Source: the human T2T-CHM13v2.0 reference genome, Homo sapiens
Length of the DNA stretch: 64,000 bases
Strand: one strand, 5' to 3'
Assembly (NCBI RefSeq): GCF_009914755.1
Contig: NC_060947.1
Below are positions 1 to 22,524 of the stretch, piece by piece. Each line of letters starts with the position of its first letter. The first letter of the stretch is position 1. The position numbers and the translations under genes were made by a program. The notes below the pieces were generated by a model. It saw only the letters and a program-made list of their open reading frames with translations, made no database searches and was not told where the DNA came from.

Positions 1-3000
1 CTGCATGAGGACCCAAAGCAACACATGGGCCACTTGAAGTTCAGGTGTATAGGTAAGTGAGGATGGTGTCCATACTTCCTGTTGTTCCCATGATTTCACC
101 TCAGGTGTCCTGGTCAGAAATGACAAATGTCCCTGGCACACTAGAAACCGTGAGATTTCCCTCTGCATATTTCAGAGACAATGTCTAACCCAGTGAGCAC
201 AGTGGGACTGCAAATACCAGGTAATGATCTTGGGGTTCCCAGCCACAGCGATTACGCTGGACATTTTGCAGGTGTCTTGTAGAGAGAAATGCTGTTTTCT
301 GGGCCTGCAGCCCTGAGCTTAGGGGGTCCCACCAGCATCCAAGTAAGAGTCCTTCAACGATGGATGCGAGCATTGTGATTTGCATGTGTCCTGTTAGAAC
401 ACTTTGTGTGTTTCTGAGGCATATATCTCAGTGTAGGTTTTCCAGGGTCCCACAAGGAAATCCCGATAAACAGGAGTCAGGATCAGGGAACACGTCTGCT
501 ATCTGGGTAAGTGATGGTGTTCATGGTAAACTCACCACACACCAGGCGATCTCCACATACCTAGGTAAGCAAGGTTCCTTTGCCTGAAGGGTTTATCATG
601 TGATGGGTTAACAGGTATTTTGGTAAGAAAGGGTAGCGGCTCTCCGTTCTCCTCGCCATGTGATCCTATTGATTTCTACCCTGGAAAGAATGTATGATGT
701 ATGTGGTCTGTGAGGGCTGATTGATTGTCACATACCCAGGGAACTCATGTGGCATTGTGCATCACAGGAGTAACTGTGGTGGATTTGCAGGGAAACTGGC
801 CAGGGAAAAATAGTGTGTCCTACAATGGCCTAGACCCTGGAGGGCCTGCAAGCATCCAAATACATTTTTGACTCCCACAGTGATTATACTGAGCAAGGCG
901 GTTTGCAGGATCCTGATGGAAAAGCTGTGTCTGTTGAGCCATTGATCACACTTGCAGTTTCAGGTTCAGGCAGGCAGAAGTCAGAGCATGAGGACAACAT
1001 TGAGGTCTCTCCAGGCGATTTATGGACTCTCGGATTTGGTAGTGATTCAGGTACGAGATGATCATGGCTCTCATCATTGTAGTGACCATGGTATTTTGAA
1101 GGAATGCAAAAACAGATGATGGGCCCGTCCCTGACCATGGTAGTGCCCATGGGATTTTTTAGCTATAGAATGAAAAGATGACAATGACCATCTCCATGGT
1201 AATGTCTGAAATTTTTAAAATATCCAGGTAACAAATGAATGTTTCTGCTTAGGAAGTGAACATAGAATACTGAAGTTACAGAGTTAAGAAATGATGATAA
1301 ACTTCACCATGGGGGTGACCATGATATTTTCTAGATATCGAGATAAGTGAGGATGGTGACCCTAACTTGACTACCAAAATTGAGTTTGCTCAGGTAGGCA
1401 TGAAGGAGCTGATGATGCCGCTTCCCATGTTAGTGAATATGACATTTTGTGGTATTCCAGATATGATGGCGAACCTAATCACAAAATAACCATGAGATCA
1501 TGAGATTGTCAGGGGTCTAGTAAAAAGATGGTGGTCCCCTTAACCATGAAAGTTATGATGAAATTTTGTAAGCCAGTAATTAAGAGATCACAGAGATCCT
1601 AACCGTGATACTGAACAAGGAATTTTGCAAATCACCAGGTAAGAGATGATTGTGTCTCTAAAAATGTGGTGACCGTGGGATTTTGCAGATATCCAATTAA
1701 GGAATAATGTGTTCCTAGAAATTGTAGTACCAAGGTATTCAGCAGTTACCCAGGAAAGAAATGGTATGTCCCTAGCAATGGCATTTAATCTGGGTAATTT
1801 GTAGGTCTCCATGTATGGTAGGTTTTTCTAAATCTGATAGATCTCATGGGCTTCTGTAGGCATCCGCATGAGAGATGATATGTCATAAATTGTAAGTAAC
1901 TGCCACTACCGTAACCAAAGTATTTTATAAGTGTCCAGCTAAGAGCTCTGGCTTTATGTATTTGTTGGATTTATGACCATTTTTTTCTGTGTTTTCATAG
2001 TTTTTTTTCTTTTTTTGAGAGTCTGGCTGAGGTATTGCTGATGCACGCATAAACCACAGCATGCACCATGGGACTGTCCCAGGGACCTGGTTCACTGATG
2101 AGATGTCCCCACACGTCTTCCCGCCGTGATTTCTTTCACAGGTACTCAGCTGAGAAATGATTGAGTCCTTACCAATCCCAGATTGGCCAGGTTTTCCCAT
2201 TTTCTGTTTCAACAAAAGTGTATGCTGAAACCTGTGAGTGTAGAGGGATTGCAGGGAGTCAGGTATTTATCACTGTATTCCCCGCCCCCGTGCTGCCCCT
2301 AGGATGTCTACAGGTGAACAGTCGAGAAACGGTGGTTTTCTGCTATCAGGGTCGACCTGAGATTACTGCAAGTATCCAGGTCGAGTGGGTGTGTCCCCAA
2401 AAGATGGAAATCAAGGTTATTTGTAGGAGTGCTGGTGGAAAACCCCATGTCCTTCTACACATGTGTCTTCTACACATCTGATTTTGCAAGCTGCCAGAGA
2501 AGATATGATGGTGTCTCTAAAAATGTCTAAACATGTGGTGACCACGGGATTTTGCAGATAACCAGTTAAGTAATAATGTGTCACTAGAAATGGTAGTCCC
2601 AAGGTATTTAACAGTTTTTCAGTCACCCAGGAAAGAAATGATGTGTCCTTAGCAATGGCATTTAATTTGGTTAATTTGTAGGTCTCCATGTCTGGTAGGT
2701 ATTTCTATATCTGGTTGATCTCCTGGGCTTCTGTAGGCATCCACATGAGAGATGATGTGTCACAAATTGTAACCAAGTGCCAAGGTATTTTACAAGTATC
2801 TCACTTAAAGCTCTGGTGAATATAAGTTTTTGAAGATACCCAGTAGGGAATGATGTTGGCCTAAGCCGTGGTAATGCCCACGAGTAGTGCCCATATCTTG
2901 GTAACAGGTGGTGTGTGTCTAATTATGGTTGTCACCATGGTTTTTTTGCAAATTCCAGCAACATAATGAAGACAATCTTAACCGCTCTTATGAATATAGG

Positions 3001-3274
3001 ATTTCGCAAGAATTGAGGAAAGAAATAATGTGGGCTTTAACCAAGTAGACATGATTAGATTTTGGGGATTTCTAAATAAGTGATCACGGTGTCCCTAACC
3101 ATGGGATTTTGCAGGTTGTAGTCAATAGGTGATGATGAATTTAACAGTAGGCGCAAACATGGGATTTCTTGATACCCAGGTAAGACATGATGTGGTCCTT
3201 AAACATATTACAGACCATATGATTTTTTAGATACCTAGATAAGCAATAATATATCCTGAAATCTTGATGTTACC

Positions 3275-4305
3275 TTTTTTTTTTCCCATTTAAAAAGTCG
3301 CTCATTCTCAAATATTTGTGCAGGGCTGATTTCAGAGTATAAGAATGCACCAGCGGTTGGCCCAGTGACTCACGCTTTAATCCCTACACTTTCGGAGGCC
3401 GAGGCGGGCAGATCACTTTAGGTCAGGAGTTCGAGACCAGCCTGGCCAACATAGTGAAACCCTGTCTCTACTAAAAGTACAAAATTTAGCCGGGCGTCCT
3501 TGTACATGCCTGTAGTCCCAGCTAGTCGGGAGGCTGAGGCACGAGAATCACTTGAACCCAGAAGGCAGATGTTGCAGTGAGCCGAGGTTGGGCCACTGCA
3601 GTCCAGACTGGGCGACAGAGCGTCTTTGCCCCCATCACCCCACCCCCAAACAAAGAAAGAGTAATGCACCAGAGTCATGAAATAATGATCTTACCACAGA
3701 GGGCGTAAAAAACAAAACCTCAGAAAATATTACCATATTTCGAAAGACTTGTGGAAAATAATTAAGGACCAGGTAGCAGAAATTGTGATCAGAGGAAATA
3801 ACATAAGAATATACTTAAGCGCACAGTACATAGTTGGAGGGAGAACTGTTTATCCTTCTAAAACCGTTACTATGATCAACACAGACAAGAGACACTTCCC
3901 TGAAAGGTTAAATTGTTTCATGAGAAATAAAAGCAACCAAAATGAGCCACATTATCTACAATAGAAGAGACTATATGGAAAAAGTTCTATGGCAAGAGCT
4001 AATTCGTTGGTATACAAAAAGATCCATGAAAAATGACCCAATTTTAGACACATTAGATATTGCAGGCTCAAAAATCAAAGGAACATTTTGAAAGCTAATT
4101 TAAATTTAATTAATTGCTGAATGTCTCCTTGGCTAGTAGTTGAACGATCATTATTTAGTCCCACATCTCTCTCGTCATTTTGTTTGCAAACTGTCTAAAA
4201 GCCTTATTTCCTCATCTCTTTGACAGATGACCAAAATGGATCCTACAGTATAATCACACAGGATAATGTTGGAAAGTATGACTATCTAAATTATTTTTAA
4301 AGGCA
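3275..4305 (-). other. Retrocopied 3' UTR and poly(A) remnant of ATXN3L
   Basis: Non-array sequence between the stop codon and a T-run at ~3275-3284, where array sequence resumes on the left. Confidence 0.7.
3355..3662 (+). mobile_element. Alu (AluS-like) in the ATXN3L 3' UTR
   Basis: Full dimeric Alu; target-site duplication AATGCACCAG at 3344-3353 and 3663-3672. Confidence 0.93.
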
Positions 4306-21192: not shown

Positions 21193-21353
21193 AGCTGGGC
21201 ATAGTTGCATGTGCCTATAGTATGAGCTACTCTGGAGGCTGAGGCGGGAGGATCACTTGAGCCCAGGAGGTTGAGGCTGAAGTGAGCTGTGATCACACCA
21301 CTGCACTCCAACTTGGGTAACAGGACAAAACCCTGTCTCTTAAAAAAATAAAA
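21193..21353 (+). mobile_element. FRAM/AluJ right-arm monomer inserted in the array
   Basis: GGAGGATCACTTGAGCCCAGGAGGTTGAGGCTG monomer with A-tail; AGATATAATGTGT repeated on both sides. Confidence 0.85.
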
Positions 21354-22524
21354 GAGATATAATGTGTGTTTAACATTAGTCTCTAAGGAGGGCTATGCCG
21401 GTATCCAGGTGAGTTATCCTACTCTTCCACATTATAGTATGAACAATGAGATTTCTAAGTCAAGCGATGATGGTATCTCTAACATTAGTGTTGATCTCAA
21501 AGTTCTACTAAGATCGAGGTAGTGTTGGTGGTTCCTCTAATGAGGAAAATGACTGATACAAGTTGCAGGTGCCCCGTCCTTTTTTGCAGGTAAAACAGCG
21601 TGTTTCATTAAACACATTCATCATTGAATGTGTTTCTTCAGGTACCCATAGTCATGAAATCATAGTGAACCTAACAGTGGTCATTTATGTGTTCTTGGTA
21701 GTAACCAGGTCAGTGATAAATTGGGTCTTACCACACTACAGACCACCTGTTCTTCAGATTTTTAGGTAAGCAAGTATGGTCCCTCTAACACAGTGTTACT
21801 GTGTTTGTCTTTTTCAGGCTTCCCAAAAGTTGTTTGATAGTATACAGGCATGAGATGGTGTGACTCTAACTCATTAGATGCCTTCGTCTTTTCAGTCATG
21901 TAAGTAATGAATGGTGTTTTCAAGGCCGTTACATAAACCTTGTTTATGGCATGTATGCAGTTTAAAAATTAAATTATCCCTACTACTAACAGGAACCATG
22001 AGTTTTTAATGTATTTTTCTTTTGAGATAATGTGTATTTAACACTTGTACTGATAGACATATATGCAGGTATCTTGCTATTTTATCATATTGCTCATCAC
22101 CACATTATTGGCCATGGGATTTTTGGAGGTATCTGTCAAAGAGTAGACGGTGCCTCTTCCTATAGTTTGACTTTGTAGTTCTGCCCTTATCTAGCTTTTG
22201 TGGGCCCCAAAAGATTCAAGAAACCAAGGGAATTTGTAGCTGTACAAGTAGAATTAGACTAGTACCAAACCCATTTCCCACAATGTGTTTTCCAGGGTGT
22301 GTCAAGAGATCACGGTGAGCCTATCTACGGTAATTAATATGTGATATTGCTGGTTTTGAGGTAAATGATGATGGAGAGACCTAAACCAGAGCACAGATTA
22401 CCTGATCTTCATATAGATACAAGTGATGGTTGTGTCCCTAACACTTGATGTTACCATGATTTCTTTTTAAATGTTCAGATAGGAAATGATAGAGTCTTTA
22501 CCAATTCTCAAAACCACGAATTTT

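What the first reader, a model, noticed from the sequence alone, without database searches (positions are those of the whole stretch)
1..22524. A >22-kb cryptic satellite whose monomer is a one-strand cassette of splice signals
Seen: a ~58-bp monomer, approx. CCATGGGATTTTGCAG|GTATCCAG|GTAAGTGATGATGGTGTCCCTAAC, repeated on the order of hundreds of times, always on the + strand. Clean examples are TGCAGGTATCCAGGTAAGT at 18702-18720 and TGCAGGTATCCAGGTAAG at 8075-8092. Established: TTTTGCAG|G is a 3' splice site, CAG|GTAAGT is the perfect U1 match and CTAAC is the branch-point consensus; they occur here in the correct order. By eye these words are the best-preserved parts while the spacers are heavily diverged. 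Inference: a + strand transcript would be a dense multivalent platform for U1/U2AF (a splicing-factor sponge, nuclear-retained scaffold lncRNA, or combinatorial/recursive splicing substrate). Monomer-level 'introns' (~50 nt) are too short for normal splicing, so binding may matter more than excision. I do not recognise this as a catalogued satellite, but cannot search to confirm.
Basis: partly seen in the sequence, partly recalled or inferred. Interest (0 to 1): 0.9.

Follow-up and report, generated by a model that had tools for sequence, protein, structure and literature searches.

The report
Old X-linked repeat array spliced into lncRNAs
A very old, badly decayed tandem repeat on human Xp22.2, built from a roughly 520-bp unit of nine 58-bp subrepeats, happens to carry splice-site words that two testis long non-coding RNAs use as real splice sites, but these words show at most weak signs of being preserved for that job.

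Summary
A 58-bp repeat fills window -3847..~22520, about 405 monomers and 22.9 kb of repeat. It lies on the + strand only and at no other place in the genome. TRF does not detect it, and NCBI's mask leaves it unmasked.

New here: the true unit is a ~521-bp higher-order repeat (HOR) of nine distinct monomer types in fixed order, about 42 copies. The ATXN3L retrocopy and several Alus were inserted later.

The + strand carries 118 U1-like sites (at least 7 of 9 matches) against 17 on the - strand. RefSeq lncRNAs GS1-600G8.3 and LINC01203, both reported as testis RNAs, take 7 of 8 in-array donors and 4-5 of 7 acceptors from the repeat's own words. They use the same HOR positions repeatedly, about one exon per HOR. 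The HOR, not the 58-mer, is therefore the working splicing unit.

Selection is not shown:
- Paralogous blocks diverge equally in splice words (0.844) and elsewhere (0.838).
- GT is kept no better in live than in dead donors.
- Only 147 of 384 monomers keep the donor GT.
- The core is 5 points better conserved at HOR level, and this remains unexplained.

Most likely this is a near-neutral old satellite exonised into germline lncRNAs. A sponge or scaffold role is unsupported but not excluded.

The parts
1..3274 (+). Array segment. It continues left of the window to about -3847 and holds the GS1-600G8.3 exons.
   Evidence: Cyclic monomer and HOR parses; upstream extent.
3275..5374 (-). ATXN3L retrocopy inserted into the array. 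Poly-T at 3275-3284 is its poly-A tail. A later Alu lies at about 3359-3622. The coding sequence is 4306-5373.
   Evidence: Flank sequences. Window 3660-4303 matches a chr14 locus at 78% over 644 bases, which I take to be the 3'UTR of the parent ATXN3 gene (gene identity inferred from position, no annotation seen). Alu matches. ORF of 355 aa.
5375..16642 (+). Main array segment. It includes a clean nine-monomer HOR copy at 6698-7231 and a block at 13818-16636 that is paralogous to -2689..122.
16643..17651 (.). Interspersed-repeat insertion (an Alu start is recognisable). The HOR phase is continuous across it: about column 90 on both sides.
   Evidence: mask list in the hub's note.
17652..20214 (+). 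Array segment.
20215..20509 (-). Alu insertion flanked by a 15-base target-site duplication with one mismatch.
20510..22520 (+). Last array segment. It holds LINC01203 exons 1-4 and ends at an Alu (22520-22732).
437..506 (+). GS1-600G8.3 exon. Its donor is at HOR column 483 (monomer 9, CAG|GTAAGT). Its acceptor is at HOR column 409, nine columns from the column-418 site used by the LINC01203 exon at 20921-20984, which shares the same donor. I read the two exons as probably paralogous.
964..1050 (+). GS1-600G8.3 exon. Acceptor at HOR column 418; donor at monomer 4, column 21.
1..52 (+). 3' part of GS1-600G8.3 exon -72..52. Acceptor at HOR column 418; donor at HOR column 20 (monomer 1, TAG|GTAAGT).
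2001..2141 (+). GS1-600G8.3 exon. Donor at monomer column 13|14. The acceptor is not at a repeat splice word.
20680..20751 (+). LINC01203 exon 1. Donor GCAG|GTAAGT at monomer column 13|14.
20921..20984 (+). LINC01203 exon 2, running from HOR column 418 to column 483.
21098..21136 (+). LINC01203 exon 3. Acceptor at HOR column 72 (monomer 2). Its donor is at spacer column 52, the one donor of eight that is not at a repeat splice word.
21818..21899 (+). LINC01203 exon 4. Acceptor at HOR column 72. Donor at monomer column 21|22 by the monomer parse, or column 17 by the HOR parse.

Best explanation
This is an old, single-locus, one-orientation higher-order tandem repeat. It has about 42 copies of a ~521-bp unit made of nine diverged 58-bp subrepeats, which in turn show an older three-monomer periodicity. 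It predates the ATXN3L retrocopy and has decayed to about 72% identity with the HOR consensus.

The ancestral 58-mer carried a T-tract-CAG|GT word, a CAG|GTAAG word and a CTAAC word. Any + strand transcript is therefore studded with U1-complementary sites. In the germ line the array is transcribed from its left edge and from inside. The spliceosome picks the best surviving words: the monomer-8 and monomer-2 acceptors, and the monomer-9, monomer-1 and monomer-4 donors. This yields short exons of about 40-140 nt, roughly one per HOR, which are annotated as the testis lncRNAs GS1-600G8.3 and LINC01203.

Shown: the array, the HOR, the strand bias, and the coincidence of annotated splice sites with repeat words. 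Inferred: the splice words are a legacy of the founding monomer that decays almost neutrally, and the lncRNAs are a by-product rather than the reason the words exist.
For: Array, period and strand.

Single locus:
- A 2.1-kb query finds only this locus, at 68-73% identity.
- Of 12 genome-wide 18-mer matches with at most one mismatch, 5 are at this locus.
- The 6 of the other 7 places that were fetched (L003-L008) each hold a single profile hit and no array. The seventh, on chromosome 20, was not fetched.

HOR:
- Monomer identity peaks at lag 9.
- The k-means label string repeats 8-4-1-5-3-6-7-2-0.
- The HOR profile scores 14155 bits against 6525 for the monomer profile.
- On held-out 17660-22520 it scores 0.61 against 0.315 bits per base.

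Splice use: 7 of 8 donors and 4-5 of 7 acceptors are at repeat words, at recurrent HOR columns 418, 72, 483 and 20. Exon starts -72, 437 and 964 are 509 and 527 bp apart.

U1-like sites with at least 7 of 9 matches: 118 on + against 17 on -. The flanks have 26 and 25 per 40 kb.

Near-neutral decay:
- Paralogous blocks: 0.844 against 0.838, p=0.6.
- GT live 0.755 against dead 0.751.
- Donor GT is kept in 27 of 45 (monomer 9) and 24 of 47 (monomer 1) HOR copies, close to the ~0.51 expected from average G and T retention.

Age: the array lies on both sides of the ATXN3L retrocopy. That retrocopy is dated to the Haplorrhini ancestor, 61.6-71.1 Mya (PMC13010821, passages read).

Testis expression: GS1-600G8.3 (PMC13010821 section 8, passage); LINC01203 (PMC12055976, one table passage).
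Against: At HOR level the core columns 6-27 are better kept than the rest: 0.749 against 0.700, Fisher p=4e-15.
- A uniform-decay simulation gives a core-minus-spacer gap of 0.012 or less, against 0.054 in the real data.
- The excess persists within each base class and within three of four classes of columns grouped by how many monomer types share the base.
- Live donor words (0.785 against 0.740, p=0.007) and live acceptor words (0.773 against 0.690, p=1e-6) are somewhat better kept than dead ones.
- The monomer-8 acceptor AG survives in 36 of 43 copies, well above about 0.51.

These effects could reflect weak selection. They could also come from conversion or mis-registration between monomer types: 47% of non-consensus bases at type-specific columns are the pan-monomer base, against one third expected. 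T-runs also align without mismatch, and HOR copies are not independent. I could not separate these explanations.

No cross-species data were available. Only 7 of the 17 GS1-600G8.3 exons were visible to me.
Confidence: 0.7

Rival explanations
1. Selected RNA platform. The + strand transcript is kept by selection as a multivalent U1/U2AF-binding RNA: a sponge, a chromatin-tethered scaffold or a recursive-splicing substrate. The splice words are preserved for binding.
For: The excess of U1-like sites is 7-fold at 7 or more matches, about 14-fold against the - strand at 8 or more (42 against 3), and 6 against 0 for perfect 9-mers, all on one strand. There is small but significant excess conservation of the core and of live over dead words at HOR level, and high retention of the monomer-8 acceptor AG. 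U1 motifs are reported to drive chromatin retention of non-coding RNAs (bioRxiv 10.1101/310433; only the title and start of the abstract were seen, in the listing).
Against: No difference between splice words and the rest in the youngest paralogous blocks. The invariant GT is no better kept in live than in dead donors. Only 38% of monomers keep GT and 11% keep GGTAAG. Three of nine monomer types had already lost the strong donor in the HOR consensus. Acceptor-like sites are barely enriched. From general knowledge (recalled, no call): U1 is very abundant, so a tissue-restricted lncRNA with about 100 sites is unlikely to titrate it.
Confidence: 0.1
2. The order of cause is reversed. The array arose by tandem duplication of a piece of a real gene's exon-intron boundary, or of an exon-intron module of an ancestral lncRNA. 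On this reading the cassette of signals is inherited from working splice sites and is not a chance property of a satellite.
For: The monomer holds a complete, correctly ordered set: T-tract, AG, GT, strong donor, CTAAC. The HOR behaves as an exon-plus-intron module in today's transcripts. Repeats that copy a donor at an exon-intron boundary are known: the 37-bp F7 IVS7 minisatellite (PMC1557585, abstract start seen).
Against: No source sequence was found elsewhere in the genome. A 58-bp unit is too short to have been an exon plus an intron. No Rfam family lies in the unit. There is no ORF other than ATXN3L.
Confidence: 0.15
3. There is no real repeat. The pattern is a chance clustering of common splice-like words in AT-rich DNA.
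For: TRF reports no array in 1-22524. Mean pairwise identity between monomers is only 0.475.
Against: All 152 profile hits are on +, and all but one lie between -4000 and 23000. None lies in the 41 kb of window to the right, and only one lies in the 36 kb further left. Control sequences and the reverse strand give 0-153 matched bases against 22,136. The HOR profile generalises to held-out sequence.
Confidence: 0.01

Closest known systems
Higher-order-repeat satellites (alpha satellite is the textbook case; recalled, no call)
   Same: Head-to-tail monomers in one orientation. Several diverged monomer types in fixed order form a larger unit that was itself amplified. Later block duplications and transposon insertions followed.
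   Different: Single euchromatic locus of about 26 kb. The monomer is 58 bp and the HOR 521 bp. Copies are about 57% identical to each other, not near-identical. Not centromeric. Not detected by TRF. Left unmasked in NCBI's file (hub's note).
Minisatellites that supply splice donors: the F7 intron-7 37-bp VNTR (PMC1557585, abstract start seen) and the IFI6/6-16 minisatellite (known to me only through citing papers listed, and recalled)
   Same: Each repeat unit carries a 5' splice-site consensus, so a transcript meets many equivalent donors in a row, and real transcripts use some of them.
   Different: Those arrays sit at one exon-intron boundary of a protein-coding gene and are short. Here the units also carry acceptor and branch-like words, fill 26 kb, and supply both ends of whole lncRNA exons.
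Tandem exon-intron repeat host genes of snoRNA clusters (SNORD115/SNORD116 in SNHG14; recalled, no call)
   Same: A non-coding gene whose exons and introns recur with the period of a genomic tandem repeat, one exon per repeat unit.
   Different: No snoRNA or any other Rfam family lies in the unit. The unit is 0.5 kb instead of about 2 kb. The copies are far more diverged.
Repeat RNAs that hold RNA-binding proteins (PNCTR with PTBP1, HSATIII with SR proteins; recalled, no call) and U1-motif-dependent chromatin retention (bioRxiv 10.1101/310433, listing)
   Same: Many copies of one protein- or snRNP-binding word on one strand of a repeat-derived non-coding RNA.
   Different: Abundance, localisation and binding are untested here, and the words are not demonstrably conserved.
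Recursive splice sites (juxtaposed 3' and 5' splice sites; recalled, no call)
   Same: The words TTTTGCAG|GTA and CCAG|GTAAG are AG|GT junctions of that form.
   Different: Known sites are single conserved elements in very long introns. Here they are decaying repeat copies, and annotated transcripts use them as ordinary exon ends.

Membership tests
Tandem satellite with higher-order repeat | Head-to-tail copies of one period, all in one orientation | tested here: met
   58-bp peak in k-mer distances. 152 of 152 profile hits on +. 405 monomers with median length 58 bp.
Tandem satellite with higher-order repeat | Distinct monomer types recurring in a fixed order as a larger amplified unit | tested here: met
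   Lag-9 identity peak. Label string 8-4-1-5-3-6-7-2-0 repeated. The HOR profile doubles the score and holds on unseen sequence.
Tandem satellite with higher-order repeat | Present at several loci or chromosomes, as classical satellites are | tested here: not met
   A 2.1-kb query finds only this locus. Of the 7 18-mer matches elsewhere, the 6 that were fetched are singletons without an array; the seventh was not fetched.
Catalogued human repeat family (Dfam/Repbase/T2T repeat annotation) | Match to a library consensus | not testable with these tools
   No such library is on hand. Indirect evidence: NCBI's mask leaves the array unmasked (hub's note). Paper searches listed no title on a tandem array here; only PMC13010821 was opened, in passages.
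Minisatellite supplying splice sites (F7 IVS7, IFI6) | The repeat unit contains a 5' splice-site consensus that transcripts use | tested here: met
   7 of 8 annotated in-array donors lie at the unit's G|GTA junctions. This rests on the RefSeq models given in the hub's note.
Minisatellite supplying splice sites (F7 IVS7, IFI6) | The array spans one exon-intron boundary of a protein-coding gene | tested here: not met
   The array is intergenic or lncRNA sequence. The only coding ORF is the inserted ATXN3L, on the other strand.
RNA-binding-protein or snRNP sponge/scaffold repeat RNA | Dense one-strand binding words | tested here: met
   118 against 17 U1-like sites with at least 7 of 9 matches; 42 against 3 with at least 8 of 9.
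RNA-binding-protein or snRNP sponge/scaffold repeat RNA | Binding words maintained by selection | tested here: inconclusive
   No excess in paralogous blocks or at GT. There is a 5-point excess for the core at HOR level.
RNA-binding-protein or snRNP sponge/scaffold repeat RNA | Abundant nuclear RNA shown to bind the factor | not testable with these tools
   Needs CLIP, RNA-FISH and cell fractionation.
snoRNA-host tandem exon-intron repeat | The intron of each unit holds a snoRNA | tested here: not met
   Rfam gathering scan of 1-24000 on both strands gave 0 matches.
Recursive splice site | Juxtaposed 3'ss|5'ss word | tested here: met
   AGGT at columns 12-15 in 70 of 384 monomers and at columns 20-23 in 94 of 384.
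Recursive splice site | Used as an intermediate in stepwise removal of a long intron | not testable with these tools
   Needs lariat or nascent-RNA sequencing.

The most novel reading that the evidence does not exclude
The ~521-bp HOR is a maintained exon-intron module. The array would be a conserved eutherian X-linked germline locus whose + strand RNA, loaded with about 100 U1 sites, is held on chromatin and acts in cis, for example on ATXN3L, whose promoter and 5'UTR are the array's antisense strand. The weak excess conservation of the core and of the monomer-8 acceptor would be the trace of that constraint. More broadly, a satellite seeded with splice words would be a way to give birth to multi-exon lncRNA genes.
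Probability: 0.1. Interest if true: 0.6.

Novelty: new member of a known kind. Interest (0 to 1): 0.35.

Why it matters
This is a clear case of a repeat that standard tools miss, yet it explains the whole exon structure of two annotated human lncRNAs. Their exons recur with the 521-bp period because the splice sites are repeat words. It cautions against reading function into multi-exon testis lncRNAs. It is also a natural experiment on how the spliceosome chooses among hundreds of decaying, near-equivalent sites. And it shows that ATXN3L, a gene of interest for SCA3, draws its 5'UTR and start site from the array's antisense strand. If the weak conservation signal proved real across species, the locus would be a candidate U1-rich, chromatin-held germline RNA.

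Tried and rejected
- TRF on the whole window found no array in 1-22524.
- The first cyclic parse, with a cheap re-entry penalty (-10) and retraining, over-fitted. 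Controls gave 6.6-8.0 kb of 30 kb 'matched'. I discarded it for a stricter parse.
- Gap-open -3 matched nearly everything in controls and was rejected.
- Average-linkage clustering of monomers gave one giant cluster, so I used k-means.
The single-locus claim therefore rests on BLAST-level and 18-mer searches.
- snoRNA idea: GTGATGA after the donor looks like a C box. There is no Rfam hit, and the nearest CTGA is only about 39 nt away in the HOR consensus (my reading). Dropped.
- A coding reading: no ORF of 90 aa or more other than ATXN3L exceeds 109 aa.
- The first search for the ATXN3 3'UTR was swamped by an Alu. I repeated it without the Alu.
- Phase continuity across the ATXN3L insertion at HOR level is not exact: column ~57 on the left and ~224 on the right, about three monomers missing. 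Insertion into a pre-existing array is therefore inferred from array on both sides, not proven by a target-site duplication.
- Clock ages are 41-89 My for the blocks and 144-316 My for HOR copies. They use recalled rates of 1-2.2e-9 per site per year and assume copies that were once identical. I treat them as order of magnitude only.

Full report
WHAT IS THERE

Per the hub's note, the window is human T2T chrX:12,896,001-12,960,000. TRF reports no tandem array in 1-22524, but the repeat is real.

Several independent measures show it:
- CAGGTA occurs 72 times on the + strand and 6 on the - strand inside 1-22524. In the other 41.5 kb the counts are 10 and 5. GCAGGTA is 20/0 against 0/1.
- Distances between shared k-mers peak at 58 and 116, and also at 464 and 522, which equal 8 and 9 x 58.
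- An nhmmer profile seeded on 20 sites and iterated finds 140 hits, all on + and all at or below 23000.
- I fetched 40 kb upstream. The same profile then gives 152 hits on + and none on -. All but one lie between -4000 and 23000.

I wrote a cyclic (wrap-around) profile parser. With settings that match only 0-153 bases in the reverse strand and in a 30-kb control, it tiles 22,964 bases in eight segments from -3847 to 22641. That is 405 monomers, 384 of them near full length, with a median of 58 bp and a mean identity to the monomer consensus of 0.63. The right end of that parse, and short stretches at 16643-16664 and 3275-3284, are spill-over into Alu or poly-T. The array proper ends near 22520.

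After dropping rows in Alu, poly-T or the ATXN3L coding sequence, 333 monomers lie in window 1-22524 and 67 lie left of the window.

SINGLE LOCUS
- A 2.1-kb piece of the array finds only this locus in the 3.1-Gb assembly, at 68-73% identity.
- The 18-mer with at most one mismatch has 12 matches, 5 of them here.
- The 6 of the other 7 places that were fetched each hold one profile hit and no array. The seventh, on chromosome 20, was not fetched.
- Rfam finds nothing in 1-24000.
- The only real ORF is ATXN3L.

HIGHER-ORDER STRUCTURE (NEW HERE)

Monomers are only 0.475 identical pairwise, but identity peaks at lag 9, with lesser peaks at multiples of 3. K-means clustering into nine groups gives a label string that repeats 8-4-1-5-3-6-7-2-0 along the array.

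Ten copies with the exact nine-label pattern measure 506-536 bp and are on average 0.573 identical to each other. A 521-column HOR profile raises the parse score from 6525 to 14155 bits. It covers 21,911 bases, equal to 42.1 HOR equivalents, at 0.718 identity to the HOR consensus.

I trained the profile on 5375-16640 only. On unseen 17660-22520 it still scores 0.61 bits per base, against 0.315 for a monomer profile. The other test stretch, -3847..3274, shares 77-83% paralogous blocks with the training part, so it is not independent.

The nine type consensuses are 0.45-0.75 identical to each other, and closest at cyclic lag 3. The history therefore reads 58 bp, then about 174 bp, then about 521 bp. 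Kilobase blocks were duplicated later. One example is -2689..122 with 13818..16636 at 80.7% over 2859 bp. Another is -3899..-2711 with 968..2167 at 82.2%.

LATER INSERTIONS AND AGE

The gap at 3285-5319 is the ATXN3L retrocopy on the - strand:
- A poly-T at 3275-3284 is its tail.
- Window 3660-4303 matches a chr14 locus at 78% over 644 bases, which I take to be the parent ATXN3 3'UTR. The gene identity is inferred from position; no annotation was seen.
- An Alu sits at about 3359-3622.
- Array sequence resumes right after the ATG at about 5375.

The HOR phase is not continuous across the retrocopy: about column 57 on the left and about 224 on the right. Insertion into an existing array is thus inferred, not proven. 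Phase is continuous across the 16643-17651 insertion. The Alu at 20215-20509 has a 15-base target-site duplication.

PMC13010821 (passages read) dates ATXN3L to the Haplorrhini ancestor, 61.6-71.1 Mya. The array is therefore older than that. Clock estimates from Jukes-Cantor distances and recalled rates are 41-89 My for the blocks and over 140 My for HOR copies. These are rough.

SPLICE WORDS AND THEIR USE

I counted sites that have GT and at least 7 of 9 matches to CAGGTAAGT (my own simple rule).

| Threshold | Array span, + | Array span, - | 40-kb flank, + | 40-kb flank, - |
|---|---|---|---|---|
| At least 7 of 9 | 118 | 17 | 26 | 25 |
| At least 8 of 9 | 42 | 3 | 2 | 3 |
| 9 of 9 | 6 | 0 | 0 | 0 |

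Acceptor-like sites are hardly enriched: 1.66 per kb, against 1.21 on the - strand and 0.95 in the flanks.

Retention across the 384 near-full monomers:
- AG at columns 12-13: 178
- GT at columns 22-23: 147
- GGTAAG: 44
- CTAAC: 37

The RefSeq models in the hub's note show that these words are used. Of 8 donors inside the array, 5 lie at column 21|22 (CAG|GTAAG), 2 at column 13|14 (GCAG|GTA) and 1 at spacer column 52. Of 7 acceptors, 4 lie at column 13|14. A fifth, at 964, does so by the HOR parse. The ones at 437 and 2001 do not.

The sites recur at the same HOR positions in both genes:
- Acceptor at HOR column 418 (monomer 8, T-run then CAG|G): exons -72, 964 and 20921.
- Acceptor at HOR column 72 (monomer 2): exons 21098 and 21818.
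- Donor at HOR column 483 (monomer 9): 506 and 20984.
- Donor at HOR column 20 (monomer 1): 52.

GS1-600G8.3 exon starts -72, 437 and 964 are 509 and 527 bp apart, one exon per HOR. The six annotated introns between in-array exons run 113-950 nt (from the exon coordinates). The spliceosome therefore works at the scale of the HOR, not the 58-mer.

I saw only 7 of the 17 GS1-600G8.3 exons. The three at 4227-5372 lie in the retrocopy, not the array.

Expression is reported as mainly testis for GS1-600G8.3 (GTEx, cited in PMC13010821 section 8). [quoted passage not shown]

ARE THE WORDS PRESERVED?

I tested three levels.

(a) Youngest level. Nine paralogous block alignments were used, each with at least 74% identity and at least 300 bp. 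They gave 6137 same-phase pairs; 1610 pairs whose parse phases disagreed were left out.
- All splice words: 0.844 (n=2905) against the rest 0.838 (n=3232), p=0.6.
- AG/GT columns: 0.839 against 0.841.
- CTAAC: 0.843.
- The T-tract-acceptor is slightly higher (0.868, p=0.02).
- The first donor is lower (0.811, p=0.009).
- The pairs are not fully independent.

(b) Monomer level. Identity to the consensus is 0.69 for the core and 0.56 for the spacer, but 0.665 for the non-splice GATGATGGTG word. The donor G and T are only 0.52 and 0.65. A uniform-decay simulation run through the same parser gives 0.65 against 0.60, so part of the gradient is anchoring bias. Much of the rest is fixed difference among the nine monomer types.

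(c) HOR level. The core is 0.749 and the rest 0.700 (p=4e-15).
- Simulations give a core-minus-spacer gap of 0.012 or less, against 0.054 in the real data.
- The excess holds within each base class.
- It also holds for columns whose base is shared by 3 or more of the 9 monomer types. It is absent (0.687 against 0.689) for type-specific columns.
- Live donor words beat dead ones (0.785 against 0.740, p=0.007). Live acceptor words do too (0.773 against 0.690, p=1e-6).
- The essential GT does not differ: 0.755 against 0.751.
- The donors actually used, in monomers 9 and 1, keep GT in 27 of 45 and 24 of 47 copies. That is near the ~0.51 expected from average retention.
- The monomer-8 AG is kept in 36 of 43 copies.
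- The 45 best-kept columns listed are almost all A or T and are scattered. Of the top 52, 28 lie in the core, which is 37% of columns.
- At type-specific columns, 47% of non-consensus bases are the pan-monomer base, against one third expected by chance. This points to conversion between monomers, mis-registration or retained ancestral states. Any of these would inflate the shared core without selection.

VERDICT

The best reading is a very old, near-neutrally decaying single-locus HOR satellite. Its founding monomer carried splice words, and germline transcripts are spliced at the best survivors, which creates two annotated lncRNAs.

The sponge or scaffold idea is neither needed nor excluded. 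It would need cross-species rates, CLIP and localisation data, none of which were available here.

My searches listed no title on a tandem array at this locus. Of the listed papers I opened only PMC13010821, in passages, and it has 0 occurrences of 'satellite'. No repeat library could be consulted, so 'undescribed' is provisional.

Noticed in passing
window 5374-5492 (- strand): The annotated ATXN3L 5'UTR, and hence its start site, lies in array sequence read antisense. The retrocopy itself begins at about the ATG (5373). The gene appears to have taken its promoter region from the satellite.
   Followed up: partly
window 3275-4305: The ATXN3L retrocopy extends about 800 bp beyond the annotated transcript end (4086), to a poly-T at 3275-3284. 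Window 3660-4303 is 78% identical to a chr14 locus that I take to be the ATXN3 3'UTR (inferred from position, no annotation seen), and partly matches a chr8 locus. An Alu at about 3359-3622 was inserted later.
   Followed up: yes
about -3909 to -3847 (left of the window; L012): The annotated start of GS1-600G8.3 (-3909) lies within about 60 bp of the left edge of the array. The duplicated block -3899..-2711 = 968..2167 begins almost exactly there.
   Followed up: no
window 13068-16636: This stretch is a 77-81% paralog of the 5' part of GS1-600G8.3 (-2689..967) and is richer in G+C (0.468 at 14-16 kb). No transcript is annotated on it in the table given.
   Followed up: no
HOR monomers 1 and 9, for example window 6698-6755: A perfect C-box-like word, GTGATGA, follows the strong donor GTAA directly. 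GATGAT is among the better-kept non-splice words. No Rfam snoRNA matches, and the nearest CTGA is too close for a box C/D RNA.
   Followed up: partly
window 1-22000: There is steady positive GC skew on the + strand (0.02-0.16 per 2 kb). It stops at the array's right end, as expected from the G-rich monomer.
   Followed up: no
window 37336-37532: A 98-bp unit is present as two tandem copies at 96% identity. It is unrelated to the array.
   Followed up: no
PMC13010821, table footnote (passage): Several Old World monkeys are reported to carry tandem duplicates of ATXN3L1. An array-rich setting could favour such unequal exchange.
   Followed up: no
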